Positions 13,541 to 61,329 of a DNA stretch of 64,000 nt are shown here, one piece after another. The DNA lies in the NCBI RefSeq assembly GCF_009914755.1, contig NC_060927.1; one strand, given 5' to 3'. Position 1 is the first letter of the stretch; each line of letters starts with the position of its first letter. The translations under genes and the position numbers were made by a program. This stretch comes from the human T2T-CHM13v2.0 reference genome, Homo sapiens. Under the pieces are notes generated by a model. It searched no databases. It was given only the letters and a program-made list of their open reading frames with translations, and was not told the DNA's origin.

Positions 13541-14293
13541 AACTCCTACGTATTTCTGCCCAGCCCTTAGATTATGGATCAAAATTAGAGGAGCCCCAAG
13601 ATTGTTTCCTGCACTTGGGCTGGTTGTTGGGCCTGCAGAGTGTTTAAAAGAATTGAAATAAGTTGCTATCATAAATAAATCTAGATTCTTGGATTCTATT
13701 GAAAAATGGCACAGATATGGCTATACTGAGCTTGCATTCCCTTATGGCATGTGGGGCTGAAGCTGACTTGTGATGCCCCTCTAACCAAGCCTCCCTGGCC
13801 CATTTCCCTCATTGACATTTCCAGACTGGACCCTATGGATAGTTGCTGGGTCAGCCAGGCCACCTATAAGGCCAGGTGCCTTCTTTCTCCAAGACTCCCT
13901 GCCTTCCTGAGGGTCTGAGTCACTGTATGGAACACTCAGGCCTAGATCATACATAGAAAAGTATGTGGATAGGGATGTGTGTTCATCCCAGGATGCAAAA
14001 ATATCAGCAAGAAGAGAGCCACTAACAGCTAATGAGTGCAACCACGTCAGGTGCCCTGCTAAACCCTTTGCATTCTTTTCTTTTCCATTTTAGTCTTCTA
14101 GCCACTCTGGGAGGCAGATCCTATTATTTTCTTCATGTTTTATCTGAGGAAACTGAGCCTTAAAGAGTTGGAAAACTTATCCACTTAGCTAGTAATGAAG
14201 CTGGGACTCCAGTTTAAATTTGTGGTGTTCTTTCTGTCTGCAAAGCTGCTTGGCCCCTCTCATCCAGGGCACAGGTATATCCATGGAATGCAC

Positions 14294-22475: not shown

Positions 22476-23538
22476 AAAATCGACTTGAGTCTACTTAATT
22501 CCTGTGATACAAACCTTCTAAGTTCCACTGGCAAATTCTGATCTCACTCTGCATCAAATGTAGATGAAAAGAGTAAGCTGTCAACAAGCTTGGTTTCTGT
22601 GTTTTCCCCATTTCGTCATACATTCTGTTCGCAAATGCGCACATTTTTCAACCTGGGCACAGAGGGCACCCCCACTTTCAACCACTCCTGAGCCCGAGCT
22701 CACGAACCGCCATCGCTGCAGAGGAGACGCCAGGCGGTGTTAATTGCTTGCTGGGTGGTGGGGAGGAGGGGCTGGGTTACCATCTCGCCTTTGATCAGGA
22801 GGTAGAAGTAATGGTTTTACTTACATCCTGCTTTGTCTCTGCACAGGCTGAGAGCCAAGGATCCATTTCAGGCTCTCTCTTTCTTCCTAGTATTCTGTTA
22901 CTGCCTACATACCGCGGCCCAGAGCTTCAGGCGAGGTTGGGGGGAAACCAAACGCTCTTTGTGGTACACCCACATGACAGGCTTCAAAATGGAAACAATA
23001 TTTAAGTTTAACCTGGAAGATCAAGTTTGCTCAAATCTCGCAACGCAGGGAGCTTTTGAAAACTTTAGCAGTAGGTCTGCATTTGATGGAGAGAGGCAAG
23101 CAGTGATGGAGAAATGAGGCCTTGTTAACAGACACTGAATCCCCACACGGGAGTCAACATTTCGCCTTATTCCTTATAAATAATGGGGATAATAATAACA
23201 CACTGAGACAGAGCCTTGAAAGCTTCAAGGTGTCTTTACAGCCACATTCTTCTGCAGTCTGCAGAATAATTTTGGGAAGAGGGTGCGCGGTGAAGGTGTA
23301 GAAGGTAGCCGTCATCAGCCCCACAGGACAGAGAAGACACATAATCAAGTAAACTGATTTTAAAAGTCAAAAAAATCAAGACACTTTCCTCAAGTAGCAC
23401 ATTTCCTGACTCTTCAAGCAGCGCTCTTTCCACTGTTCTCAGGGTTCCATTATTTGGTTGCCCCAAGCTACTCAGATCTCAGCCATTCCTCAAGGAATTT
23501 CAGGGCTGGAAGAAACCTTTAAATGATTCATAGAATCT

Positions 23539-23941
23539 TGTTATGGATTGAGTTGTGCCCCCTCAGAATTCATGTGTTGAAATCCTAATCCCTAGTACTT
23601 GAGAATGTGACCTTATTTGAAAACAGGGTTGTTGCAGATCTCATTTGTTAAGATGAGGTCATCTTGGATCCTGATCTTAGGTGACTGTTGTCCTTATAAG
23701 AAGGGGAAATTTGGACACAAGGAGACACATGCACTCAACAACGCCGGGAGAAAATGAAGACAGAGATCAGAGTGATGCATCTACAAGCCAAGGAACACCA
23801 GAGATTGCCACCAAACCACCAGAAACTAAAGGAGAGGCATGGAATAGATTGTCCCTCACAGCCCCAGAAGGAAGTGCGCCTGCCTACACCTTGAACAAAG
23901 CCTGCAGAACCTTGTTATGGCAGCCCTAGAAAGGAAAGACA
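23539..23941 (+). mobile_element. MLT1B/C MaLR solo LTR
   Basis: tgttatggattgagttgtgcccc...gaatgtgaccttatttg...ctacaagccaaggaac...ttgttatggcagccctag; TG...CA termini. Confidence 0.92.
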
Positions 23942-24750
23942 AATCATAAGGTGGGAAGTGTCATCATGGTGCTAATGCTGATGAGAGTTTGCTGGGCTCC
24001 AGAACTGGGCAAGGGTTCACTGCATCATCTCATAGCTTCCATACATGGACTCTGCCAGGTAGGCACTAGAAATGAGGGCTTTGAGGCTCACAGAGGCTGA
24101 GCTACTCAGTCAAGATCACACAGCTAGCATGTGGCCAAGATGGATTTAGACTTGGGCAGTCTGAGTCCAGACTCTGTTGCATTATCCCTTAAACATCACA
24201 GCCTCAGGTGGGGTGGCCAGGACAACTGATTAGCATCTATGAAGCCCTTTCTCATGTAGAACCTGTAAGGGGCTCACACCACCACCATGAGGTAGACACT
24301 ATTGCCTAGGTTTTGTAGGGGAGGAAACAGGCACTCAGATTAAATCACTGACCCAAGGTCACAGAGCTCATCAGCGGTGGAGCGGGGATTTGAATCAAGT
24401 CTGTTGACTCCAGCAGGAGCTCTCAATCACTGCGCAGGAGACCAGCAAGTTCAGATTTGCTGGGTTCTCAGTGGCAAGTATGTCACCCTTTCCAAATTAC
24501 CATCTCCTCCCTCTGTACCTCCACCTGCCATGCACACCTTGACTGTTGGTCCCCTCTTCCATGTCGTAACACACACATGGACATTTTCAATGTTCACTTC
24601 CCTTCCCTCCCTCTGTGAGAAAGCTCTGCTTCCTCTGAGTAGTGTCAAAGGTAAGTTTCAGACTGTAAAGTCTGTGAGGTTCCTTCAATCTGCGGGTCAA
24701 ACTCTGATAATGTTCAAAGTCAAATCCAGGAATGACATGTAGGGGAAAAG

Positions 24751-24980
24751 CAGTGGTTCCCAACCAACCAGGAGCCATGTTGCCCCCCAGGGGACATTCA
24801 GCAATCTCTGGAATCATTTTTGGTTGTCACAACTAGGGGCTGGGGGTGGGGTGGCAGGGATGCTATTGGCATCCAGTAGGTAGAGGCCAGGGACTCTGCT
24901 AAGTATCCTACAACAGACAGGATGCAAGACAAAGAAGTATCCAGCCCTAGATTCAATAGTGCTGAAGCTGAGAAATCCTG
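24751..24980 (+). mobile_element. MER20 (hAT-Charlie MITE), full length; a truncated inverted copy lies at 26078-26263
   Basis: cagtggttcc...tgccccccaggggacatt...tttttggttgtcacaact...tagaggccaggga...tgagaaatcctg follows the MER20 consensus. Confidence 0.9.
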
Positions 24981-25129
24981 GCATAGAGCGTGTTCTCCAG
25001 GGGCAAACTGCCCACTTCTCAATTCCAGCTCCATCACTCACTAGTTCCGCAACTTGGAGGCAACTGTCGTAAACTCTCTAGGGTCCAGTTTTCTTCTCTT
25101 TAACATGTAACTAATAATAGCACACGCCT
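24795..25129 (+). repeat. Left arm of the 335-bp inverted repeat
   Basis: Base-by-base reverse complement of 25929-26263, except g24990 versus t26068. The ORF track shows mirrored ORFs (24798..25037- and 26021..26260+). Confidence 0.98.
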
Positions 25130-25849
25130 ATTAATACATAATATTAGTTATTATGTAACGAATAATAGCACATACCAATATCTTATATGTATACATTATT
25201 ACATAACACATGTTGTATATTATATGTTAAACATTGTGTTAGTTTCCCAGGCTAATCCACAAAAACCTATATCATGTTGTCATGTTGCTAAAATTCCTAT
25301 GCTTGTGGAGAGGGTTGGGGAGGATAATGGAAGATAATATAACAGCTAAAACATAATATGAAAAACAATACTGAATGAAAACTTAACAGCATTGATTGAT
25401 CTCAGGGCCACATACTTCAGGAGAAGTGGCCTTGTTTAGAAAGAACAAGGGAAGATAGTGCTCATCTTATGATGCTGTTTTGAGAATTAAATCTGTTAAA
25501 CCATGTAAACCGTCTAGCACATTGTAAAAGTGATGTAAATGCTAGTTGCATAGATAAATGGAGACCTTTAAAAAGATTCCAGAGGGAATTTCTGAACTCT
25601 TTTAAAGTGAAACCTTTAGAGAGTGATCGCCTAAATTATTTATACTTAATTTCACTTTAAAACAAGAGTTTCCTTCTACATTGCACCTGGCTATTTGTGC
25701 ACATGCTAAGTGCCTGAGTCTGCCATTCATCATCCTGAGACCGCCTGCTGCAGCTAAGATTGCCAGCTAGTGCAGCTGAGAATCAGCTATGGAAGCCCCA
25801 CAGTCAGATGCTTACCTTCCAGTTTTGGAAATAATAAGGGTGCCTCTCC

Positions 25850-26040
25850 TAAGCAATTACACCGTGCCCAGCACTTCACTTAGTGCCTGGCCATACACTA
25901 ACTCACTTTGCCCCCCAACAAATCCAGGAGGCGTGTGCTATTATTAGTTACATGTTAAAGAGAAGAAAACTGGACCCTAGAGAGTTTACGACAGTTGCCT
26001 CCAAGTTGCGGAACTAGTGAGTGATGGAGCTGGAATTGAG
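25850..26040 (-). mobile_element. MIR SINE spanning the inner boundary of the right IR arm
   Basis: The reverse complement aatagcacacgcctcctggatttgttgggggcaaagtgagttagtgtatg...agtgctgggcac is colinear with the MIR core and 3' consensus. Confidence 0.75.
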
Positions 26041-26263
26041 AAGTGGGCAGTTTGCCCCTGGAGAACATGCTCTATGCCAGGATTTCTCAGCTTCAGCACT
26101 ATTGAATCTAGGGCTGGATACTTCTTTGTCTTGCATCCTGTCTGTTGTAGGATACTTAGCAGAGTCCCTGGCCTCTACCTACTGGATGCCAATAGCATCC
26201 CTGCCACCCCACCCCCAGCCCCTAGTTGTGACAACCAAAAATGATTCCAGAGATTGCTGAATG
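25929..26263 (-). repeat. Right arm of the 335-bp inverted repeat
   Basis: Reverse complement of 24795-25129 at 334/335 identity; the spacer is 799 bp. Confidence 0.98.
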
Positions 26264-28209
26264 CATAATAAATTATATATCTCTCTCACTATATACATAT
26301 AAGATATATAATGCATAATAAATTTTATATATATATATGTATCTCACTATTTGATTTCCCAACCATGAGTTAGCTGGCTCATAAACTCATCTGGGGAGAG
26401 ACTTTGGCATGTGGTTTAAGGAGCTGGGTCTGAATAACCCCTTGCTATATCAGATAGCTAGCGGTGGCCACATAATACTGAACAAAGAACACGGAATGTG
26501 ATGGGGAATGACAACTGGGTTACAGTCTGGGTTCTTCTACCTCTGAGTTGTGTGACCAAGATGTAATTTAGCCTCTCCTCTGTAAAATGGGGCAACCTAA
26601 GACCCACATGGTGGGGCAGAGAAAGACTAAGTAGAGTTACACATGGACAAAGGAAGCCTTCCTTAACGGTTGTGCTCCACTCCAGGACAAGTTATGCTCA
26701 TCGTCATGACTTGGATTCCATGGCTACAAGTCTCACAGGACTCCATTGGGGTCTGCCGGCTGATGACAACACCTCATTCCAATGTGGTAGTATCACTTTC
26801 CTATCTTCTTTTTAGTGCCTTTGTGTGTTGCCCCTCTTGACCTCTGGGACTGGTGTTCAGGCCACACCACACAGCTCTCAATGCCAGCCTGTTGAATCGC
26901 CCATGCTAATCTATATCTATACAGAATTGATGGCAATTATAGATTATGCAATATAAAGTTACCCTGTGCTAACCTCCAGAGTCCTTGAATTCTTCTTATG
27001 ACCAGAACCTCACATTGAGAGATGAGTAAGAATATACTTAACTTGAGTAAAACTACTCAAGGAGAGCAGGAACTTGAATATTTAGCTTCTGTTGAGTTGC
27101 ACATAGCAGGTACTCAATAAATATTTATTGAACTAACTGCTAAACAGGTAAGTATTAGTTAAGTGCTACATAGCATAGTATGCAACGGTTATCCCTCCCA
27201 GTGTCTTCTTTCATTTCTTTTCAAATAATCTGAATAATTTGTAGGCAGGAGCACAAGAGCTTAGTTTTTCATCTCATCAACAAAGAACCCTCCAAAGAGG
27301 AGACATTCCTTTGGCCTTGGTTGTTGGCATTTCAGGTATAATTATATTTTTCACCCTAAAATTTCCCAACAAGATTAAGAGTTACACACAAAGTCTCCTT
27401 AACCTTTGGCTCGGAAGTTTGCACAAGGAGCTCTGCCCACTTTTCACGTGATTTCTGAAAGATGCCAGCTGCTGGCAGCCATGAAACATGAAACACAAAG
27501 AACCCATAATCTGCTAGAACATACCCTGCTTGCACAATTCCTTGAAGCCTCTCTAAGAATACACCAAAGCCTGCAAGTGTGTACATGCTTTTCTCCAGGC
27601 AAGGAAGATGCAACATTGCTTTCTCAACAAGCTGTTTCCAATATTTTAAGTAACTATTCTGGCTCGGCCAAGATAAGAGAGTACAAAGATCTAGGGAAAA
27701 GACAACTTTCACATTTTCTTTGTAATTTCACTTGGTTGTGGCCTCTGTTGAAGTTTCGCCTACTTCAAAACATGATGGTATTTCTTGTAATGGCTGAAAA
27801 GTTTTAAGCTTCTTCATGTACCTAATTCCAATGGGCTATTAACTGGGCTAGTTTATTGGCACTGTGGATGGAGGGCTTTTGAACTTGCAGGCATATATTT
27901 TTTATTGGCTGGACAGTTTGCTTGACTCTTCGAGAGCTATATCCAACCCATCCCAGCCAGGTGGTTTTTGGTGCATAGCATGAAGTCTCCAGGGAGAATG
28001 GTTCCATTTGTTCCCTTGGCCGTGTGTGCCAATGCAAAGCCCAGCACTCAATGCTCAACCTGATTCAGGAGACATGGAGCAAGTAAACTTTTAAAGCTTT
28101 ATAACACATAGTAGATACTTGATAAATAATTACAGAGATATTGACGTGGCAAGCCTGTGAGAGGTGATCAATGTAGAGTAGGTAGTGGTAGGGAAGAAAA
28201 TAAAAACAA

Positions 28210-28430
28210 CAAGGCTAGTATTTATGGAGTGCCTTACTATGTACTAGCACTGGGCTCGCATTTTACACCACTATTACGTTTGATCTTCACAAGAACTCCA
28301 TGAGGGAGGAAAATGTAAGAAATCGCTTTCCCCATTTTCCAGATGAGGACATTGGAAATTCAGAGAGATTAAATATTGTGCCCAAGGTCACACAGCTTTC
28401 AGGGACAGATCTGGAATGCAGAGCTCACAC
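28210..28430 (-). mobile_element. MIR SINE
   Basis: cttactatgtactagcactgg...cccattttccagatgagga...cccaaggtcacacagct. Confidence 0.85.
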
Positions 28431-28739
28431 TCTTACCCCATGAGATCCTATATGCAGACTGGACATTCTACTCATGAAAAAAGGGAAGAACAAAAGGAGG
28501 AAGAGGTGGTGAAATAAGATGTGAGAAGAAAGCAGAGAAGTGGTCAATGGAGAAAACCCCTAAGGTGGAGAGGACGAAAATGGACAGAGCCCTTGTTGGC
28601 TGTCTTCACGATTCTTAAAGAAATGGGCCCATCTTCCCCTTCCCATGAGGGGAGTTTGTTGGGGAGCTTGAAGACTACAGCAGAGATTGAAAAGGGTCAC
28701 CATGGGGAATGCAATGTGAGTCAGTGCAGACAAGCAACC

Positions 28740-31504: not shown

Positions 31505-31954
<450 letters not shown>

Positions 31955-33520
31955 TTACAATCCAGTGCCGTGGGCCAATGGGGAGACTCCCTTTTTAATT
32001 ACCAAGTTTTTTTTTTTTTTTTTTTTTTAGTAGAGTGATTTGTACAGAAACTCCTTTCAAATAACACAGTGACTTCAGGGATCAAGGTGCACAGAAAGAA
32101 GAACAGCAGAGGCTGGGGGATCAGCAAGGTTGCTAATTCCATCACACGCTGACTCAGGGCAATCAGAGGCACTCCTCTGACACCTGAGCAGGGAACAATG
32201 AAGCCTCATGCCACTGCCAAGAACAAACCCAATGGGCAACAGTGTACTCTTCCCAGCCTCTGCATCCAAAGGGCTCTAGTGTGCGTGGCCACTCCAGCCT
32301 GCCCTGACCTCCCGACTGCCCGATGCAGAGCATATCTTAAAATTATAAACAGATGTGAAAAACAGTCATGTAATGCCAAGTAAATGATAACACCACCAAA
32401 AACAGTCTTAGCTACCTTTAAAGGCTTAATCCATCAGGTGGGAGTGGTGGAACCAGTATTTGAACTTGGTCTGTGAGGCTCTAGAGCCTGGGTACTGCCC
32501 AACCACTCTGCGCCAAAGATTATGCAAAGACAGAGATTCCCATCTCCATCAAGTACATATTTACAAGACCATCTGCATAGGAAAAATATGGCAAGATATA
32601 TACTGAAAAGTTAAAAATGATGCTTTCTCTGAATGAGGATTTTGAGAAAATTTTTTTCCTGATATACTTATTAAATTTCCTAAGTTTTGTAAAATGAGCA
32701 TAAAAGTAATACATGAGGAAAATGAATTGGTGGCTGTAGGAAGCTCAGATTTCCCAGTGAAAGCAATCTGCGATTATTATTTCAGGGCCTCGTCTTATGT
32801 TTGCCCTCTGATGGACAAAGATACAATGTGCAGCGAGGGGTCTTTCGCCACATATGGGAGTCTGCCTTTTTATTCTGGATCTAATAGGTTTAACTGAGAA
32901 ATCTTCTCTCGAAGAGATTATAACAATCTTTCTTCTTCAAACTTCCAGGGGCTCTGTTTCTACCTCTCTGCATATACACAGTGACTGAGGAACTAAGGAA
33001 ATGTTTGGGGACTGGCAGATTTTAAAGCTACCCTTGCCCTTCAACCACCCACACAAACCTAAAAGAAGGGACCTGATTTATTAAGGTGCACAGCAGAAGG
33101 GCACACGGTGAGGTTGCAAACGCTGACTCTTAGGCTGAAAGAAATGGCAAGGAGTCTCCTTATAAAGGCTCAGCATCTCAGTGATTTTGTCACCATGGGA
33201 ACAACCCTGTGAGCTGCAAGGCATGCATGGACCCATGTTTACAAGTGCAGGATCTGCTTCAGAGGGATGGGGGCCTGACATCCCAATTTTACTCCACTCA
33301 AGATTGAACACACGAGCACCTTAGATCCTGACCTGGCACAGTGGAAGTTCTCAGTTGCTGTGTGCTGTTGTTCTCAGCATTTACATTATATTTCCCAGAA
33401 AACAAAGCTAGAGGACATGTATATTCCCAGAATACATTCCCATCTCAAAGTCTCTGACAAACATGTTCATGGGGAAGCCACAATGAGGGTTGCAGTAAGA
33501 GTTTCATAAGAACACCAGGT

Positions 33521-33538
33521 AGCCACCAGATGGTGGAC
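33521..33538 (+). promoter_or_regulatory. Candidate CTCF site
   Basis: AGCCACCAGATGGTGGAC resembles the CCASYAGRKGGCRS core with a C-to-T deviation. Confidence 0.4.
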
Positions 33539-34084
33539 TAGCAATTTTCCTGCAGAGATCATGTGACTCTGGAGAAGGAATATATGGGGGAGGCCTGAGG
33601 ACAGAGTTAAGGTACGTCTTGGTAAGGCTAATGACCTCCAGCCAATGGATGCTCCAATAGCAGAAAGGAATCTAGCCATTCTGATTGATACACCTAGTGG
33701 TGGCCATAATATGTGCTCTGATTTTAGATGTCGTCTTGGTTTTCCCCTTTGGTTGGGGCTGTGGAGATGGTTGGAAAGAGGTGGGGCTGGAGTTGCTTTC
33801 CCTGAACCAACAAGACAATTCTGACTCAGAGCATTACGTTGGCCACCAATTGGATGGCTCCCCAAAGAGGCCTCTGAGAAGTATCTATTCTCAGGCTACA
33901 AGTCTCAAAATGAAACCTGTGAGCCTTCTCAACCCCACATTTGCATGTTCTAGAGCAATACCTTCTGGTCTCCCTGAAAGTGCCATTATGGCCATTTTCA
34001 AATGTTATTAATAATTCTTTTAGAAGCTTTGGTTCTGCCTCCAACATTAAATGATGCCCTGCATCGTTTAAAAACCCTTTCCAT

Positions 34085-34430
<346 letters not shown>

Positions 34431-34559
34431 TTTCTTTCCATCTTTCTGATAACTTGGGTGATCCTCTGAGATAAAGCATGTATAATATTGTGATGTCCCA
34501 GGTGTAAGACAATTGTCACATAAGATCACGCATGTCTCTCTGGCACCTGCTAACACTGA

Positions 34560-34649
34560 CAGTGCTAACTACCAAAGGCACCTCTCTCCCTACTCTCACC
34601 CATAGCAGACTTTTGGGCTGGCTGGTTTCGCTGATGTTTACTGAGCTGC

Positions 34650-34687
<38 letters not shown>

Positions 34688-35200
34688 TTAGCATTCAGCT
34701 TTTCATATCCCTCCCACCCATTGGTATCTGTGTCTCAGATTAATTTTCACCAGATGTGAGTGTCTGGACTTCTCCAAGATTTGTTATTTTCCCTCCATGT
34801 TCCTAACCTTCTTCAGGCCATTTGTGTGATTTCTCTGACCTCACTAGTGTTTCCAACACCTTCCAAATTAGTGTCATCTGTGACTTTCCTTCACATGCTC
34901 TTTTCTCCCCTTTACAGATCATTAATAAAGAGGTTAAACAAGACCAGACCAACAGCATACTCTAAAGCAAATGACAAAAGGGTGGGAGAGCCAGCATGCT
35001 CCCTGTGCGCCAGCCCTGGCACAGGAAGGATGTAATGTAATGTAACAACACTCTGCTAGACGCCTCCCGCCTCTGGCCCAGTGGTAATTTATCACCACTG
35101 TTTGTTTATGATTTCTCAGCCAGATTTCAGGTCCTCAGAGTGTGGTCATATCTAAGCCAACATGCATTGCTCTGCCAGGTAACCCTTATGAGCTCCAGAG
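34560..35200 (-). mobile_element. L3/CR1 LINE reverse-transcriptase fossil
   Basis: The minus strand at 34935-34861 translates NLFINDL*RGEKSM*RKVTDDTNLE, colinear with CR1 NIFINDL...KFADDTKL. Confidence 0.85.
34650..34686. repeat. (TTA)12 microsatellite
   Basis: Direct reading. Confidence 0.95.
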
Positions 35201-36989
35201 AAACCCACAAGAACTTATTTACTGCCCTCCAATCTCCTTAAAAGCTTCTACCTTGGCCCCCAAGTCCATCACCCTTGAGAGCAGAAAGAGGTGGACTGAG
35301 ACATTATTATCCTTTTCTCTCTTCCAATTCATTAGCTCGCAATTAATTATTTGTTAAATATTCATTGGCTTTCATGTTACTCATTAGATTTTTCTTTAAG
35401 CCGAAAGAAACCCTCTGCTATAAACAGGGACTAATTCATACTCTCCAACAATCAAACTTTCCTTTGCTATACCCAAGTGTTATAAAAATCAAAGGTAACT
35501 GGAGAGGGTATGTTTATAGGGTAAACATGCTTTAAGTAAGGCCTGCTATGTAGGTGGCTTGGGTGTAGCTATGGCCATAGGAATAGATTACCTTTCTTTT
35601 GCCTTTTCTTTTACCTCCCAAATTCAACAACCCCAGTATCAACCACTTTCCTCTGTTTATGGATACAGTACACTTTCCTGAGCCCAGAAGTAACAATAAT
35701 AGTGATATACTGATATTCTACCCAGGGTTGAATACTCACTGTGCACCAGGCATGACTTGGCATCTTACTCAGCTCATCACAGCCCTGGGGGTGTCACAAC
35801 CTTCCTCAAAGAGAAAATGGAGGGGAGAGACGGAAGGTGACTTACCCACGATCATCCAAACCTAGGTCTATCTGAATCCAGAGACCACACTGTTAGCCAC
35901 CCCACCATAGATGAGGGTCTTCTTCACTTTTTCTGAGTCACTGGCCCCTCTATCTGCTGAGGAACATAAATAAATACTCTCTTTGTGGGGATGTGCATAC
36001 ATCCACATTGAAGCCTATTAACCATGTCAGGGGATTTGCAGAGCCTCCAGGGCTTATGGACGCCTGCTTGAGAATCTATGTACTACTCTAAGCTCCTCGA
36101 GGGTAGGAATCACACTTTGTTCACTACCTTGACTCAGTACTGAGATGTATATCCAGTACATCTCCAGTACTAAGATGAAGAAATATTTTTTGAATAAATT
36201 ACTAATTGCAAAGACTGTGAATAGGATATTCAAGTTGAAGCTCTAAACAGCAGCTTTGTAAGCCTGAATAGAAGATATAAATATACAGACACCTTCCAGA
36301 GGAGTAGAAGAGCAAAATAAAAGGAGGAAGTGGGGACAGAGATAAAGCAAAAACATCTTACTTTGCCCAGGAATCGATTTTGCAATTGGAAGTAGGCAGA
36401 GACATTGTCATGGTGGTTCTAAAACACCTCGTAGCTACTTCTGGTTAGTTCTCATATTAACTCCTGAAAAGAGATTATTGAAAGCTTCTTCTGCAGAAAA
36501 ATAATATACTTAGAATTTCAAGATGAGAAGTCAATTATCAAGAGCAATCAAAATCTCATGTTGTACCCCTTAACTGACAGAATTCTTGATCCCTGGAGAT
36601 CTCAGGGGGAACTACAAGAGCCAATGGCAACTTCCTTCTCTCTAGGTCCCTCTAGTCCCTAGGTCCCTTTCAACCTCCTACAACTCTGGGGTTTTTGTTT
36701 TTCCACAGATTGCTACCCCTTACATGTCTTCTTATTCTATAACTACTGATTTTGCTTTGCAATCTCCTTTTCTTCAAGAGTTGGAGGAGCCACCCACTCT
36801 TGAAGTTAGACTTCAGACGTGCTTTAAACTTGTCAGCCTGCACATTACTGCAATAAGAGGCCAGAGATTCCCCTGCTGATATGCAGGAACATGGAAAACA
36901 GCCAAGGTCAAAAGCCTGCCCTTCCCTTGGCCAGAGCGACTGGACATCTGGGGAAACCAGAACTCTGAGTTCCCTCTCAGTGCCCCCAC

Positions 36990-37850
36990 CACCACCAATA
37001 ATGGCCTGCTCCAGCTTTGACACCCAAGGTAGAAATCTGGAGGCATTCTCAATTTTGTCCTTTGTCTTACCTCCCCATCCAAGTCCTCCTGGCTTCACCT
37101 TCCTAGTCTTATCTCCAATTTATCCACTTGTCTGCATCTCCACTACTGCTGCCCTGGGTCAGTGCCATCAATTCTCTCACAGATCATGGAACAGCCTCTA
37201 CTTCTGCTCTTCCTGCCACGACAATTCATCCTCTACACAGCAGCCAGGGTTGTTCTACAACATAAATCAAATCATGTCATGTCCCTGCTTAAACTCCTCT
37301 GATGTCTGCTCAGTTTTCTTAGGCTTAAAATCTAAACTCTCTACCTCGCCATAAAAGGCCCTACGTTTTCTGGTCCCTTCCTTCTTCTCCATCCTCATCT
37401 CACTGTTTTGTGCTCTACCCAGAGTTATGGTCTTCAAGCCTCTTCAGCTTATAAACTCCTTCCCACCTCCAGCTTTTGCATGCCTCCCGGGACCACCTCC
37501 CAAATGCACGCCTTGGCATGGATACCTCCTGACTCTCCCCTTTTAAGACTTGGCTTAAAACTTACTTCCTTGGAGAGATGCTTGCTGAACATCCTTCCTT
37601 AAGTAGGTTCCTCAAGTTAATCTCAGTATCTTTCTGGTTTCCATCAAAGCCATGACCAAAACGTGCAAGGTTTCTATTGAGATGTCTAATTATTTATATT
37701 CTGTCCCTTGACTAGATGGCAAGATCCACAGGGGAGCAACCATGGCAATCTTATTCGTCACTGGTTTCCTAGCATCTAACTGAGAACTTAACCGTTTGGT
37801 GAAAGAATGGACAAATGAGTGAATAATAAATGAATGAATGAATAAATGAA
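36990..37850 (+). mobile_element. L2 LINE 3' region
   Basis: catctccactactgct...atcatgtcatgtccctgcttaaa...aaaatctaaactc...aaggcccta, ending in (aatg)n. Confidence 0.85.
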
Positions 37851-39074
37851 AGTCTTAGTAGCCAATGGCACAAGAAAGAGATATATCAGATCCTCAGTTA
37901 TACAAAATCTAAATTGCATTAAAAGCAGCAGTAGCTACCCCTGTACAGGCGGTGTGAAAGAAAACCTGCACTTTGCATAGAAACCACCACTTTGTATAGA
38001 AACCTCTGCTTTGTGTAGAGCTCAGAGCTCTTTCCTTGATTTTCTTTTTGCAGCCATTAAATTTCTCTAGTTCCAGGACAAGCACAGGCCTAGTGTCCAG
38101 ACCCTGTCCGCTAAAAGAAGGCAAGTCAGACCTGAACTTCCTAGCCACAATAAAACATCTCCTTCCTCCTTCTTTCATTCTTCCAGAGGGGAGGCATGGC
38201 AGGGAGTTCCACTGGGCCATCCAGCACTGCTTTTATTTGTAAAACACCACTTCCTCGTGTCTAAATGTTCTGGGATTCATATTTTTACTCACCATAACAT
38301 TGTCCATGAGCTGGTGGCAGACAGCTACAATTCTTCATTTTGAACAGGCTGCATCTACTAGCATCACAGCCTCATGCCAAAACTTGTTAATGCCACATCT
38401 GTATTTTTATGAATCGGGTCCTAAAAATTTGCATATGTTTTCAATCAAAAAAGACTAATTCCTTTCTAGTGGTTTAAGAAATAAAAACTTGTGTTCTATC
38501 TTTGCTCAATTACAAGAGTTCACAGTAAGAGCTCAAACATTCAAATGTCGAGGCAGAGGTGGCACTAAATCTCACAAGGTGCCTCGATTTGCTCCTCCAT
38601 TGCCTACCTCATTGATGTTCGCAAACCCGAATGCCTCTTGGGGGATCCATGGAAAGCACCTTCATTCAATGTAAATGAAGAAGTATTTGCTGACACAAAT
38701 GATACCTACATTAAGTGGATTTTCCTGAAGAACAATTATGGAGAATTGAGGAGCTGCTTTTTCTGCATTTTGCAAGGCAAGATAGGGAATACAGTTAGGC
38801 CTCCAAGAGCACATTTTCACAATTGAAAGTATGTGTGAGTGTGGGGTTTGGGGGGTTGGTGGTGAGAGGACAGTGGTTGAATATGCTTTGCCAGGGATGC
38901 CTATGATGGCAAGAACTTGCTGGAAAAGTGATCCCGTGGAGTCTCTAGAAGAAACCCAGAACAATGAGGCTGGCCACAGGTAAATCTTAGGCATAAGAAA
39001 ACAAGAGTGTGGATGATCCAACAGGGAGGGGGAGTATAAAGAGAATTGGGAAGCAGAATATAGGAATATATGTT

Positions 39075-39260
39075 TGGTGTAGGCAGCATAGACTACATAA
39101 TTAGTGGCGCTGAGGGCAAATGAACATGTGAGGCCCCTTCTTTGAAAAACATTAGGAATTTCAAGACAGTGACAGCAGAGTTTTAACCTAAGAGTGAAGC
39201 CCTTCCAAGTGTAGGGCCTGTGGACTGCACAGGCCATACGCTGATAAATCCAGGCCTGGG
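39075..39260 (+). mobile_element. MER45A (hAT-Tip100 MITE)
   Basis: cataatt...gcaaatgaacatgtgaggcccctt...aggaatttcaagacagtgacagcagag...actgcacagg. Confidence 0.8.
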
Positions 39261-41966
39261 TGTGAGGTTTAAGAGGGGAAAGGCTAGCTCTAGGGGGTGT
39301 CAAAACTCTTTAGAAAAGTAAACTTTCCCCGGTCCACCGTGTGCTCGGAAAATACCACTCTTGAATGACCATAGTGAGACAAATAAATCATGTCTGGACT
39401 TAGCCTCCAGAAGTGGCAAAAAAGGGAGGAGCTGATGGGGTTGTTATGCTAATTCCAATTTGTTGTAATTTTTAGAGTGACTTTTTCTAAATTATGTTCA
39501 TTTCAGCACCAAAACTCCAGATTCAAGTCAGAGCCTTCCGATGCTATTATGAGCATATTACTGATGTCTAGTAAAATAACATCTTGTGATGTTTCTTTTA
39601 TAGGGGCCATAAATCAAAACATTGAAAACAGTTAATTTTTAATGTACCACTATTATCCATCTTTAGTTATAAATTTAATGTCTCCTAAGGCCTCATGGAT
39701 TGTAATGCAACTCAAAACATGCAACGGCTGCTCAAAAACAGAAGGTTCCCCCAGTATCTCATTATTTAAATCCTTAAAGATATGGTTTTAAAAGCCTGAG
39801 GATATCTAAGCAAACTTGTTTAAAGGAGTCATAAAGAAAGATAAGTAGTTTTCCTCTGAAGCATATGAAATTTATTACAGCATACTAAAGTAGGATTATA
39901 TATTGACTAAATTTCTAAAAACATTTATTTTCTGGTGTGCATGGCATTTGGGGAAATTCACGAAGAAATAAAGGGGATAGGGCTTAATACAATCGTCTGC
40001 ATTTGCCTTAAGCAAAGCAAGATTTCCTACGGGTCTTGGAGCCAATTCCATCCTGAGGATAACAACACTGTTCATATCTCAGGGTGTCATGAATCTTGTG
40101 AAAGAGCAATACAAAATCTTCACTATTCAGGAGGAAACACAAGTGCAGCCTAGCGCCCTGATACTCATGATGGCAGAAGTAGCTTCACAGAAGAGCCCCA
40201 AGTAGGATCTACACTTTTCAAGACAACTGCCAAACTCTTAGAACTTTCCTTTACCTACCTCTTCCATGCATGTTTGAGGCAGGCTTCATGTGTTTGCTTT
40301 TTAACGCTATAAAACGCTTTCTTCTCATTTCATATGACTTTAGGTCAATTGCCACTTTTATTAGCTTTTCTCTGTGAGTAAATGTGACATTTCTCTTAAT
40401 ATTTTCCCTACATAGGGAGAGAGTTGCTCCCATAGACATCCAGAACTTCTCTGATTTCCCCACTTCCTCATACTGACAAGCTTTCCTGCAGAATGACTTT
40501 GCATCTGGAAGTGTTAATTCCAGTGCCGTTTTCCCCTTTGCCAAGAAAAGGGAGAAGAGATGAGATACTTCTGTATTAACATGAAGCAGGTTTTACTGGC
40601 AGCAAATGGATCCAGGAGGCATTACATCTTTACTATGTAGAAAGATGTCGTACCTGAAAACCACCATCCTGTGAACTGCCCCCTCAGTACCAAAAAAAGC
40701 AAACTGACCCATTAGTGGGACATGTAACAGGTTCAACTAAGAAGTAAAACACAACAATGAAACGTCACCCACAGGCCAAACGTACCAGCTCTTGGTTAAA
40801 CTTCACCTGAAGCACTACCTGCCATGCTATTTGAAGGCAAGACTCGGGGAAAGACATACATGCTAAGTTATCCCAAAGAATTGTCCCACACCTGTTGAAT
40901 CTCCAGCACTGTGTCATTTCATGCTTGTCCCAGAATAAAGAGCTATAGATTGAATACTTTCTGATCAGAAAAAAATCACCATGGCACACAATCAACCACA
41001 TTCCTTGTTCTGAATAAAACATCATATGCAATGTTATCAAGTTTAATACCATATTCCATGTAACCATGTGTATATTCAACTCCAGGGAGTTTGTGACTTG
41101 GTGTTAAACAGCCTGCAGTATAGAGGAGAGGTGTAATTCCCAGCAGCAAAAGTTGCTAGACTTCAGTATTCCATTCATAACCATGTGGTAATTACATGTG
41201 TCACTATTCAATCGTAATGCAGACAGGACGTAAATAAAGGGTGGATTCTCAATAGCTAAAGATCAGCTTTTAAAATACAAAACCCTCTGATAAATACAAT
41301 GTGTATAATTTCTAATGCAAAGCCTCATAGAAGTATAATTTTTAAAAAGCAACAGATAAAATGTCACTAATAAGACCTGCTAATATGAATGTTTCTATTC
41401 TAATTCATTTAAAGAGTTACAGTTACCCATTCACCATTACTATGCCTTGATCCTTGTGTTTTCTTCAGAACTGCCATAGAAGAGATAGCACAATCCATTA
41501 AACGGCCTTCTTAGAGATGATAGTTTCAGCTCCATGAAGATACATATTTTATTTTCCTTATTCCTTGCCAAACATTTGACACAACCAGAAGGACGTGAGA
41601 GTCACACCACACTGGCATATCTGGTGAAAGCAAGCAGTCGGCTGAAAACCACGACTGGAGAATTGCGACAATTTCTGAGTCCACAATCATGCCTTAAAAA
41701 GTGTGTATAAATCCTAGTAAGGGCACAGTTTACATCTTAAATAACACAGAAACATTTGAATCGTGCTAAACCCAGCCCCAACAAGGCAGAGCAGTAATGT
41801 GGTTGTGGGGTGGGGAGGTGAGGTAGGATGGAGGGGGCTCTTGGGAAGGGTCAGGGCACGCGGACATTCTGCGCTCACAGAACACAGTAGCAAACACAGG
41901 GCACAATTCACAAACATCAGCGAGCACAATCGAGCACGCACACAATACAACACTAGAATGCAATTT

Positions 41967-58529: not shown

Positions 58530-58745
58530 GAAATGAGGGTTTGAGGACAGACCTGCCTGGATTCAAGTCCTGGCTCCACCTCTTTGCTGGTTATGTGAAC
58601 CTAAGAGAGTAAACTATTTATAAACCTTAATTTCCTCAACTCTAAAATGAGAGGAATAGTGCCTCTTTCCTCGGGGTTGCCGCTAGGAGCGAATGATACG
58701 ATGGACTTCAAGTGTCAGTCCAGTAACTGGCAATGAAAGTCAAAT
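58530..58745 (+). mobile_element. MIR SINE
   Basis: cagacctgcctggattcaagtcctggctccacc...tttcctcaactctaaaatgaga. Confidence 0.8.
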
Positions 58746-61329
58746 GCTGTCATTACTATAGTTACTGCTGTTGTTGTTTGCTGTAAGACATTTTTCCTCC
58801 TTTGTATGTGCTGCTTCCTTTGCTTGCAATGCCTCCCTAGCCCCCTTTCTTCACCTTTAACTTCTATGTCTGGCTAACTCAAACTATTTAATCTAGGAGC
58901 CTTTTCCTCACCCTGTCCTGGAGGCTGGGTGACACGTGCCTCCTGCATACCATGGCTCTATAACCACAGATTTATCCGTCCGTATGTCTGTAGACCTTGA
59001 AGCTATTTCTTTCATCTGCCTCTCCCTAGAATCTCGCATAGGGCCTAGCAGATGTAGATATATAATACATGCTGCTGTAATGAGTGACCAAAAGAATGAA
59101 GGGGCCATGATTTTGAGGGATGCTGCCATCCTAGAGACAAGCTACATGTTTGTTTTCAGCAGGGAAGGTCACGGAGAGTTGAGGACATTTCATGAGTTGC
59201 CATAACAATCCCACTGGTGGCTCAAGATGACAATGAACCAACAATACTTTCAGAGAGCCAGAAGTCAGTGGTTGGCAGAGCCTCCAACCAGTTGGAGTTT
59301 TATTATGTAATATAAATAATACACTGACAATAAAGAAAAGTCTGGACCTAACATTGTGCATTCTTAATAGTATTTTTCACATACAATCTAACTTATTCTC
59401 AATACTTTCCCAGGAGCAATTATTACTATCCTCATTTGGCAGCTAGAAAAGTAAGGTGTAGATTTCAGCCCCAAGAGTCTCTTTCTTGACATAGAACATG
59501 GAGATTTTCTGGGTCATCCAATTCTCAATCTCTAGGCTTTTTTCCTTGTCTTGCTGCTAGCAGAAAAGGCAAACAGCTAAACAGGTAGAAAGAACTTTCC
59601 CATAAAATGCTTTGATTCTGTTAAGTTTTGGAAACACCTCACATCCCAATTCTATCTGCCAGAGGATGTCTTATGATTTACTCACTCCATTTTTAAAAAT
59701 GTGTACAATATTTGAAAGGCCCCAAAGTGAATGTTAAAAAAAAACTGTCTATATGAATAAAAACAATAAAAATAGAGGGAAAGAGCCACTTAAAATTAAA
59801 TAAAAAATCCCAGGCAACCTCTGGCAGCTGAGAGCATTTCCATCCTTCACTTGTCCACTTAAAGTGTCAGAAGACCCAATGGGCAAGTTATGCCTTGTGA
59901 GAAAGAGCAGGTCAGTGGAGCTGCTGCAGACTAAGTACTGAGATTCCCCTCAGCCAGCCTGCCATTGCACATGAGATTCTGAAATTTGGCGTTTACACCT
60001 AAAATTCCAGTATTGTCAGGATCCTGTACTTTTGAACTCATGAACTAATAAATCTGGAATTGTTTCTTCTAAATAGAATTCTGAGAGCCTGAGGGGAGCT
60101 GTAAGATCTGCTGTGGGCAAGAAGGAAGGGACTCGCTCAAGAATGAAGGATGGAGCCTAAATGAACAAATAATAATTCTGCTATTGTAAACATCGTAATA
60201 TCCTCATCCTTTGGGGAAGCTCCTGTGATTTTATGAGATTATTTTCTTACCAGCAACAAGCCTAAAGTTCCCTACCTTTGAACTGTATCCCATAAAAGAA
60301 TGTACAAGCTAAACAAGATGCTATATGCAGTCCTAAATGTGTCTGCTAAAATGAGGTGTTGGAGAGTAGGCATGTCATGGGATAAAGACTGTAAATGAAT
60401 GATGTCATCTTTCCAATTTGGTGCTGAAATATAAATAAACCACGTTGTTCATGTGAATACCAGATCTGGGGGAAATGTACACAGAGCAATTGTGAGCGGA
60501 AGAGGCTTCTTTTGATTAGTCTGGGCTGGAAGAGAAGAGTGTGAAACAGAGATGAAAAATGAGAGTTTGGTCTGATACTCTAGACCGTTTTTATTTATCT
60601 TGCTTGTAACATATCCCCTAAACTGTGACCGATTTCTTACCGGCTAGTTGCTGGTGTTCTCTCCTATAAAAACAGTTTGACCAATCTTGATCCTTTAATT
60701 GTCAAATTTAAAATGGATCTCTTTTAAATTTCTTTTTTTTAAGTCTGCACTATCTAGCTTCATCCCCACCCAATTATACCGGTTTACACATAGACAAGGG
60801 TCTGGAAGGACAGGAAGTCACAAATAACACTCCCTAACAGTCAATGAAAGAAAAACTACAGAAATTTGTAACAAGGATTGGACAGGGATACTGTTTGTTC
60901 AAATAACTCTAGGCCAACTTACCAGGTGATCCCATACATAATGGTCCACAGCCCTGTAGCCTCAGATGCTTGAGGTGCCCGCTGAAAAGCCTGAAGCAGC
61001 AAATCTTCTGGGCAGGCAAAACTAAACACCCAGGAATACTAATATAGAGTTGGAGAGGGATTGCTTTCCACAGCATAGCACTTAGGAACTCAGGGACTCA
61101 TTTAGCGATTCACTGAGGCCCATTTTTATTTCCTTTGCGGTGTCTACCAAACTGCTGACCAGACACCTTTGCCTTTGGCTAACTGTGTTATACTCTTTTT
61201 ACTATATTACGTCATGACTGTGGAGACAAATCTAATCAGATTTCATTTTCTACTTCCTCTTTCTTCAAGGCGCCACCTTATTTCTCTGGGGCCATCGCCT
61301 CCTAACAGCTCTCCTGCTGCACTCTCACC

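What the first reader, a model, noticed from the sequence alone, without database searches (positions are those of the whole stretch)
24751..26350. 335-bp near-perfect inverted duplication whose TE fragments record an inversion of the 799-bp spacer
Seen: the arms 24795-25129 and 25929-26263 are reverse complements with one mismatch (a CpG-type transition). They are built from old, diverged MER20 and MIR sequence, so the identity cannot come from two independent insertions. The MER20 is intact across the OUTER edge of the left arm (starts at 24751) but is cut at 26263. The MIR is intact across the INNER edge of the right arm (continues to about 25850) but is cut at 25129. The two cut ends both abut TA-rich sequence. 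Inference: the ancestral order was MER20-arm-MIR tail-..., and the spacer now lies inverted, giving A-B-rc(D..C)-rc(B)-D-E. This is the pattern expected from a staggered-break or template-switch inversion with duplicated breakpoints. The event is either very recent or the arms are homogenised by gene conversion, and the arms could mediate recurrent, polymorphic flipping of the spacer.
Basis: partly seen in the sequence, partly recalled or inferred. Interest (0 to 1): 0.85.

Follow-up and report, generated by a model that had tools for sequence, protein, structure and literature searches.

The report
Small inversion with duplicated breakpoint, ERC2 intron
Inside an intron of the human ERC2 gene, a 335-base stretch made of two ancient transposon fragments is present twice in opposite orientations, and the way those fragments are cut shows that about 0.8 kb between the copies was flipped in a single, fairly recent rearrangement of a well-known type.

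Summary
Arms 24795-25129 and 25929-26263 are reverse complements, 335 nt with 1 mismatch at a CpG. They are the only near-identical copies in the assembly.

The transposon-continuity argument also holds. An old dispersed repeat runs across the left arm's outer edge and stops at 26263 on the right: 12 of 13 other copies align past the edge on the left, 0 of 13 on the right. A MIR-like repeat runs across the right arm's inner edge to about 25882 and is cut at 25129 on the left. Both cut ends abut TA-rich sequence, 78% and 84% AT.

The most economical reading is one inversion of the 799-bp spacer with duplication of one breakpoint segment. This kind is known from Drosophila inversions and from human "dupINV/INVdup" complex variants.

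- No primate outgroup or second human haplotype was available, so the ancestral state is inferred, not shown.
- Age is about 1.5-3 Myr, with an upper bound of 8-17 Myr without gene conversion.
- One 41-genome inversion call set lists nothing here, so recurrent flipping is unsupported.
- Staggered breaks and template switching cannot be told apart.

This is an ordinary but clean example. Interest is modest.

The parts
24747..24794 (+). It lies outside the arm and is continuous with it.
   Evidence: In one search, 37 of 38 other genomic copies start upstream of the arm edge, the earliest at query position 48, which is window 24747. In one search, 12 of 13 copies align 6-53 bp beyond the edge.
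24795..25129 (+). Left arm (B), 335 nt. It consists of the dispersed repeat to about 24988, a short unique linker that carries the CpG mismatch site at 24990, and a MIR-like fragment at 25001-25129 that is truncated at 25129.
25130..25177 (+). Junction 1 region, 48 nt. It holds an 18-nt AT-rich stretch followed by a diverged direct copy (25148-25179, 26 of 32 matches) of the arm's own inner end (25100-25131). It is either a pre-existing short homology or an imperfect templated insertion.
   Evidence: (D3, I2): the 20-mer is exact only at this locus in 3.1 Gb.
25130..25250 (+). TA-rich tract at the cut inner edge of the left arm, inferred to be the inverted distal end (D) of the flipped segment.
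   Evidence: 77.7% AT against 57.3% for the window. The 16-mer at 25178-25193 is the exact reverse complement of 26292-26307.
25130..25928 (.). Spacer, 799 nt. It is unique in the genome and is inferred to be inverted as one block.
   Evidence: One search finds only a self hit. The inversion of the whole block is inferred by parsimony.
25882..25928 (-). Segment C: the continuation of the MIR-like element across the inner edge of the right arm.
   Evidence: the profile without the query reaches model positions 4-179 on 26056->25882; a single-sequence hit reaches 25835.
25929..26263 (-). Right arm, the reverse complement of B, 335 nt. The dispersed repeat is truncated at its outer edge, 26263.
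   Evidence: 0 of 13 family copies align beyond 26263.
26264..26355 (+). TA-rich tract (E) at the cut outer edge of the right arm. It holds two imperfect tandem units of about 50 nt. The arm's last 4 nt, AATG, recur at the start of the second unit, which may be 1-4 nt of junction microhomology.
   Evidence: D1: 26260-26305 versus 26310-26355, 72%; 84.1% AT over 26264-26345.

Best explanation
This is the scar of one structural mutation in an ERC2 intron: an inversion of about 0.8 kb in which the 335-bp segment at one breakpoint was copied, so that it now flanks the flipped piece as an inverted duplication.

The ancestral order was A-B-C...D-E. A is the start of an old DNA-transposon fragment. 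B is the rest of that fragment plus the first part of a MIR-like element. C is the MIR tail. D and E are the two halves of one TA-rich tract. The present order is A-B-rc(D...C)-rc(B)-E.

The two novel joints are 25129|25130 and 26263|26264. Such a product arises in one of two ways. The first is a pair of staggered single-strand breaks on either side of B plus a break in the TA-rich tract, followed by fill-in and end joining. The second is two replication template switches, onto the opposite strand at D|E and back to E after B has been copied a second time.

The event happened within roughly the last few million years, or the arms have been kept alike by gene conversion. It sits about 15 kb from the nearest listed ERC2 exon and is most likely neutral.

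Shown: the duplication, its uniqueness in the genome, and which edges of which arm keep their transposon context. Inferred: the ancestral order, the inversion of the whole spacer, the mechanism and the age.
For: - The arms are 335 nt with 1 mismatch, and complementarity stops sharply at all four edges.
- These are the only two near-identical copies in the 3.1-Gb assembly. Other copies of the embedded repeat are 70-78% identical.
- The dispersed repeat is continuous over the left outer edge: 37 of 38 copies, and 12 of 13. It is cut at 26263, where 0 of 13 copies align beyond the edge.
- The MIR-like element is continuous over the right inner edge (model positions 4-179, score 76.7) and cut at 25129 (model positions 3-130, score 47.4). 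In a script-only reconstruction with the spacer flipped and the second arm removed, it again scores as one element, 76.7.
- Both cut ends abut TA-rich sequence at 77.7% and 84.1% AT. That is what follows if the second breakpoint split one TA-rich tract.
- The pattern has precedent. Ranz et al. 2007 (PMC1885836, passages read) found inverted duplications at 17 of 29 Drosophila inversions. Twelve inversions had a duplication from only one breakpoint region, and the median duplication size in D. yakuba was 321 bp.
- Collins et al. 2017 (PMC5338099, passages read) list dupINV and INVdup among human complex-variant subclasses.
Against: - No outgroup or second human haplotype was examined, so the ancestral single-arm state is not observed.
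- The orientation of the spacer apart from its last roughly 50-90 bp is not independently fixed. The TA-rich tracts align about as well in either orientation: scores 20 flipped versus 25 as-is, and 25 versus 23.
- Junction 1 is not clean. A diverged copy of the arm's end sits 18 nt inside the spacer, and a plain two-break model does not predict it.
- A 335-nt staggered break is long for a vertebrate cell.
Confidence: 0.75

Rival explanations
1. Multi-step origin. A copy of B plus the MIR tail was first inserted in inverted orientation into the downstream TA-rich tract. A later deletion then removed the original MIR tail, starting from the end of the left B. On this reading most of the spacer is in its native orientation.
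For: Nothing in the window fixes the orientation of 25130-25850. The complex junction 1 shows that more than a simple join happened there.
Against: It needs three or more independent breakpoints. The deletion would also have to start at exactly the base where the duplicated segment ends (25129 corresponds to 25929). That coincidence is automatic in the one-step model.
Confidence: 0.1
2. Fold-back (hairpin-primed) inverted duplication without any inversion. A broken or stalled 3' end folded back on a short inverted homology and copied B backwards.
For: A short homology to the arm's inner end exists at 25148-25179. In the ancestral orientation it would be inverted relative to B.
Against: A fold-back leaves one arm intact on both sides and the other cut on both sides. 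Here each arm keeps its natural neighbour on one side only: the left arm on its outer side and the right arm on its inner side. The homology motif is also present in addition to the arm's own copy, not as a single hybrid at the joint.
Confidence: 0.04
3. Artefact or private event. The second arm is an assembly error, or a rearrangement that arose in the CHM13 cell line, and is not part of the normal human sequence.
For: Only one assembly was examined. No read-level data were available.
Against: The whole structure, 1.47 kb, is far shorter than the long reads behind such an assembly (general knowledge, not a call). The arms differ at one CpG site, and the junctions carry non-trivial sequence. 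This looks like an aged germline event rather than a chimeric read. A call set of inversions in 41 genomes mapped to this same reference reports no difference here. That fits those genomes sharing the structure, but a missed call would look the same.
Confidence: 0.04
4. An old event kept young. The inversion with duplication is tens of millions of years old, and the arms stay 99.7% identical through repeated gene conversion. Occasional crossover would then flip the spacer, giving an inversion toggle.
For: The 335-nt, 99.7%-identical arms are the only substrate the window offers for such exchange. That arms of this length are near the lower limit for homologous exchange in mammals is my recollection, not a call.
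Against: No polymorphic inversion is listed at this place among 11 chr3 rows of the T2T-based call set. The arm edges are perfectly sharp, whereas long-running conversion tends to blur or shift boundaries. No outgroup data were available.
Confidence: 0.07

Closest known systems
Inversions with inverted duplication of breakpoint sequence (staggered-break model; Ranz et al. 2007, PLoS Biol, PMC1885836)
   Same: A non-repetitive segment from one breakpoint is present at both ends of the inverted piece in opposite orientation. [quoted passage not shown] The size is similar: median 321 bp there and 335 bp here.
   Different: Those are large, cytologically mapped Drosophila inversions whose duplicates average 88% identity. 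This one is 0.8 kb, in a human intron, with 99.7% identity. The ancestral state there was read from outgroups. Here it is read only from cut transposon fragments.
dupINV / INVdup complex structural variants of human genomes (Collins et al. 2017, Genome Biol, PMC5338099)
   Same: An inversion flanked on one side by a duplication, listed there as a recognised subclass of complex variant.
   Different: Those were called from discordant read pairs in living people and are mostly much larger. This one is seen as a fixed, or at least reference-haplotype, structure. I could not check whether it is in any catalogue beyond the two supplements I searched.
Replication template switching (FoSTeS/MMBIR) products with inverted segments
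   Same: The order A-B-rc(D..B)-E is what two switches between opposite template strands give. There is possibly 1-4 nt of microhomology (AATG) at junction 2, and an imperfect copy of nearby sequence sits at junction 1.
   Different: Microhomology at junction 2 rests on assuming that the lost unit resembled its neighbour. Junction 1 shows no microhomology.
Inverted-repeat-mediated (NAHR) polymorphic inversions of humans (Aguado et al. 2014, PLoS Genet, PMC3961182)
   Same: The result is an invertible segment between highly identical inverted repeats, which is the architecture that paper's title and abstract tie to recurrent inversion (listing and abstract seen; the passages read were about methods).
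   Different: In NAHR inversions the repeats exist first and cause the inversion. Here the cut transposons indicate that the repeat was made by the inversion. The arms are also short, and no polymorphism is listed here.
Long, nearly perfect intramolecular dsRNA in pre-mRNA (Barak et al. 2020, Genome Biol, PMC7006430)
   Same: The ERC2 primary transcript should fold the two arms into a 335-bp stem with one mismatch (MFE -911.6 kcal/mol). It meets that paper's class of >300 bp and >96% identity, which it describes as rare and sometimes heavily edited.
   Different: No expression or editing data were examined. ERC2 does not occur in the 3 supplementary files of that paper that I could search.

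Membership tests
Inversion with inverted duplication of one breakpoint (staggered-break / dupINV type) | Two copies of an otherwise unique segment in opposite orientation bracket the inverted piece. | tested here: met
   The arms are 335 nt with 1 mismatch and are the only two such copies in the assembly.
Inversion with inverted duplication of one breakpoint (staggered-break / dupINV type) | Each copy keeps its ancestral neighbour on one side only, and on opposite sides: one outer, one inner. | tested here: met
   The left outer edge is intact in 12 of 13 family copies and the right outer edge in 0 of 13. The right inner edge is intact to model position 179, and the left arm is cut at model position 130.
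Inversion with inverted duplication of one breakpoint (staggered-break / dupINV type) | The segment between the copies is inverted relative to an outgroup or ancestral arrangement. | tested here: inconclusive
   Only the 47-94 bp of MIR-like tail next to the right arm is shown to be inverted. The rest of the spacer carries no orientation marker. No outgroup genome is reachable.
Inversion with inverted duplication of one breakpoint (staggered-break / dupINV type) | The ancestral state has a single copy of the duplicated segment. | not testable with these tools
   No primate genomes or other human haplotypes are in the collections. Supplements of two ape-genome papers could not be read.
NAHR inversion between pre-existing inverted repeats | The repeats are independent older copies (transposons or segmental duplications), each with its own intact flanks. 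| tested here: not met
   The arms are composite: two different old repeats plus a linker. They are 99.7% identical, while other copies of the same repeat are 70-78% identical. Each arm is truncated mid-element at one edge.
NAHR inversion between pre-existing inverted repeats | Both orientations segregate or recur in populations. | tested here: not met
   No inversion is listed at chr3:55.70 Mb among the 11 chr3 rows of Table S1 of PMC10150506. This is one call set with limited power for an inversion of about 0.8 kb flanked by repeats.
Fold-back inverted duplication | One arm is intact on both sides with the spacer in native orientation. The other arm is novel on both sides. | tested here: not met
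   Each arm is intact on one side only.
Palindromic AT-rich repeat (PATRR-like) breakpoint | The breakpoint lies at the centre of a long AT-rich palindrome able to form a hairpin or cruciform. | tested here: not met
   The reconstructed 220-nt D|E tract has an MFE of -19.7 kcal/mol against shuffles of -16.5 +/- 3.0 (z = -1.06). No predicted pair spans the breakpoint.

The most novel reading that the evidence does not exclude
The duplication created one of the rare long, nearly perfect hairpins in a human primary transcript, inside a gene I recall as strongly neuron-expressed (recalled, no call). The stem is 335 bp with one C·A mismatch and an 0.8-kb loop. It could be a human- or hominid-specific hotspot of ADAR hyper-editing or of small-RNA production from ERC2 pre-mRNA. 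At the DNA level it could be a latent switch whose spacer flips by exchange between the arms in some lineages or cells.
Probability: 0.12. Interest if true: 0.55.

Novelty: new member of a known kind. Interest (0 to 1): 0.3.

Why it matters
It is a clean, self-documenting example of how an inversion can create its own flanking inverted repeat. Because the arm is built from two unrelated ancient transposon fragments, the ancestral order can be read from a single genome without an outgroup. That makes it a useful teaching or benchmark case for tools that classify complex variants or infer breakpoint mechanisms.

If it proves lineage-specific, it adds one small entry to the list of hominid micro-rearrangements. 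If the hairpin is transcribed and edited, it would be one of few non-Alu, near-perfect long dsRNAs in a brain-expressed gene.

No effect on ERC2 is indicated. The nearest listed exon sequence is about 5.5 kb away (other transcripts, 31757-41620). The nearest exon of the selected transcript is about 15.7 kb away. The nearest RefSeq enhancer feature (22713-23213) lies about 1.5 kb upstream of the structure. All three positions come from the annotation supplied with the finding.

Tried and rejected
- **AT-rich palindrome at the second breakpoint (PATRR-like fragile site).** I rebuilt the D|E tract inside a script and folded it as DNA. It is no more stable than shuffles (z = -1.06) and no pair spans the breakpoint. 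Rejected.
- **TA-rich tracts as an orientation marker.** The flipped spacer end aligns to the right flank with score 20 and the unflipped one with 25, against shuffles of 15.6 +/- 2.7 with a maximum of 29. With the 48-nt junction segment removed the scores are 25 flipped and 23 unflipped. Uninformative, because the sequence is nearly its own reverse complement.
- **A third transposon split by the second breakpoint.** The spacer and the right flank have no dispersed relatives at the search's sensitivity, apart from five low-complexity TA-rich hits. Nothing usable.
- **Direct genome search for other MIR-like copies.** A search with the right-arm context found only the two local copies. I replaced it with an iterated nhmmer profile over the window and fetched loci.
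- **Outgroup or population evidence from papers.** The supplements of the ape T2T paper and the primate SV preprint could not be read. They may hold the answer on lineage. The 2022 human inversion paper is held only as a preprint with closed supplements (listing seen; a phrase search found nothing). The supplement of the 1,019-genome long-read paper has no 'ERC2' or matching coordinate strings. I do not know its coordinate format, so this says little.
- **Rfam.** No family matches in 23500-27500.
Full report
**What is there**

The window is human T2T-CHM13 chr3:55,676,001-55,740,000, as stated by the hub. One search confirms it by placing the arm at C3:55,700,795.

Positions 24795-25129 and 25929-26263 are reverse complements over 335 nt, with 799 nt between them. 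A base-by-base comparison finds one difference: 24990 G against A on the reverse complement of 26068. The left arm reads CG and the right arm CA. Complementarity ends abruptly at all four edges, and the 50-60 nt beyond each edge are unrelated. Chance cannot produce this.

**The arms are a recent duplication, not two insertions**

A search of the whole 3.1-Gb assembly with the arm returns the two local copies at about 100% identity. It also returns 38 other listed places at 70-78% identity, all confined to arm positions 1-195. The first part of the arm is therefore an old dispersed repeat, and the two arms are far more alike than any two members of that family.

These names fit my memory of the consensus sequences. 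No repeat library was available, so the names are untested.

**Which edges keep their ancestral neighbours**

*Left outer edge.* I searched the genome with 24700-24995. Of the 38 other copies, 37 begin upstream of the arm edge (query position 96), the earliest at position 48, which is window 24747. All end by 24988.

I then aligned 13 non-redundant fetched copies to both contexts in the same register. I had fetched 16 and dropped 3 that were the same genomic place fetched twice. On the left, 12 of 13 align 6-53 nt beyond the arm edge. On the right, 0 of 13 do (a first version with 6 copies is). The old repeat therefore runs intact from about 24747 into the left arm and is cut at 26263.

*Right inner edge.* A direct genome search with this part found no relatives. 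I therefore built a profile by iterated nhmmer over the window, with the locus masked, and over the fetched loci. I then rebuilt it from the 16 other copies alone. That profile matches the right copy over 26056->25882 (model positions 4-179, score 76.7). It matches the left copy only over 25001-25129 (model positions 3-130, score 47.4). The first single-sequence hit reached 25835.

The MIR-like element therefore continues 47-94 nt past the inner edge of the right arm and is cut at 25129 on the left. In a script-only reconstruction with the spacer flipped and the second arm removed, the element is again one piece with score 76.7.

*TA-rich ends.* 25130-25250 is 77.7% AT and 26264-26345 is 84.1% AT. 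The window as a whole is 57.3% AT and the arm 51.9%.

**What it means**

A-B is intact on the left, and B-C is intact but inverted on the right. The only novel joints seen are 25129|25130 and 26263|26264.

The arrangement A-B-rc(D...C)-rc(B)-E needs exactly these two joints. It also explains why both cut ends face TA-rich sequence: one ancestral TA-rich tract was split by the second breakpoint.

A fold-back duplication is excluded, because it would leave one arm intact on both sides. An inverted insertion followed by a deletion would need a deletion starting at the very base where the duplicated block ends. NAHR between pre-existing repeats does not fit either, because the arms are composite, nearly identical and each truncated mid-element.

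I therefore put 0.75 on a single inversion-with-duplication event.

What is not shown is the orientation of the spacer beyond the MIR tail. The spacer is unique in the genome. The right flank has only low-complexity relatives. The TA-rich tracts align about equally well either way.

**Mechanism**

Two known routes give this product.

- *Staggered breaks.* In the model of Ranz et al. 2007 (PMC1885836, passages read), nicks on either side of B leave overhangs. These are filled in and then joined in inverted order. In that paper 17 of 29 Drosophila inversions carry such duplications, 12 from one breakpoint region only, and the median duplication size in D. yakuba is 321 bp.
- *Template switching.* Replication switches onto the opposite strand at D|E and back to E after copying B again.

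The junctions do not decide between them.

*Junction 2.* It may carry 1-4 nt of microhomology. The arm ends in AATG, and the neighbouring tandem unit begins with AATG (D1).

*Junction 1.* It has no microhomology but is complex. Eighteen nt into the spacer lies a diverged direct copy of the arm's own last 32 nt, matching at 26 of 32 positions and at 19 of 20 in the core (D3).
- The 20-mer, with one free position, occurs exactly only at this locus in the whole genome: the two arms plus this copy. There are nine further hits with one mismatch, and one hit for the reversed control.
- A local-alignment test gives score 19 against shuffles of 11.0 +/- 2.1, with a maximum of 23.
- The copy is either an older short homology that lay inverted beside breakpoint 2 and helped bring the ends together, or an error-rich templated insertion made during the event. 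I could not tell which.

*PATRR-like palindrome.* My idea that the ancestral TA-rich tract was a palindrome with the break at its centre failed.

**Age**

One difference in 335 nt gives 1.5-3.0 Myr at 1.0 or 0.5 x 10^-9 per site per year. The Poisson 95% upper limits are 8.3 and 16.6 Myr.

The chance of seeing at most one difference is 0.36 if the arms had diverged by 0.65% and 0.09 at 1.2%. The event may therefore be human-specific, but it could also predate the human-chimpanzee split. Gene conversion would make it older still.

The left arm has 4 CpGs and the right arm 3. This fits loss of a CpG in the right arm, which is an inference.

**Polymorphism and earlier description**

Table S1 of Porubsky et al. 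2023 (PMC10150506) gives inversions in 41 genomes mapped to this same reference. It has 11 chr3 rows, including calls as small as 336-377 bp, and none lies between 28.4 and 60.9 Mb. That argues against common flipping, but it is one call set.

I found no paper that names an inversion in ERC2. The search returned no listed paper containing 'ERC2' together with the other terms. The supplement searches found no ERC2. Supplements that might settle the lineage question could not be read.

**A side consequence**

ERC2 is on the minus strand, so its primary transcript contains both arms. Folded as RNA, the 1,469-nt stretch forms the full 335-bp stem with one unpaired position (MFE -911.6 kcal/mol).

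Barak et al. 2020 (PMC7006430, passages read) describe duplexes of >300 bp and >96% identity as rare even in pre-mRNA, and as sometimes heavily edited. Whether this one is expressed or edited was not tested. No Rfam family matches the region.

**Verdict**

The event belongs to a known class, so it is a new member of a known kind. The decisive outgroup and population tests remain to be done. Interest is 0.3.

Noticed in passing
window 25148-25179 versus 25100-25131: A diverged direct copy (26 of 32 matches) of the left arm's inner end sits 18 nt inside the spacer. The core 20-mer is exact only at this locus in the whole assembly. It is either a pre-existing homology next to the second breakpoint or an imperfect templated insertion.
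   Followed up: partly
window 26260-26355: Two imperfect tandem units of about 50 nt (72% identity) lie in the TA-rich right flank. The first unit starts with the last 4 nt of the right arm, AATG (D1). The 16-mer 26292-26307 is the exact reverse complement of 25178-25193.
   Followed up: partly
window 27104-27142: A short self-complementary stretch (40-nt alignment, 85%) about 0.8 kb downstream of the right arm. It was not examined further.
   Followed up: no
window 24023-24170, 24241-24413, 26514-26595, and about 12 further places in the window such as 14008-14210, 28228-28446, 58545-58754: There are many copies of the same MIR-like family, in both orientations, including two directly upstream of the locus. 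This is a dense old-repeat neighbourhood, which made the profile test possible.
   Followed up: partly
L008 (G000:C22:33144965-33148134), locus positions 378-530, 552-619 and 1448-1684: Three adjacent fragments of the MER20-like repeat lie within 1.3 kb on chr22. This may be a local duplication or a nested insertion.
   Followed up: no
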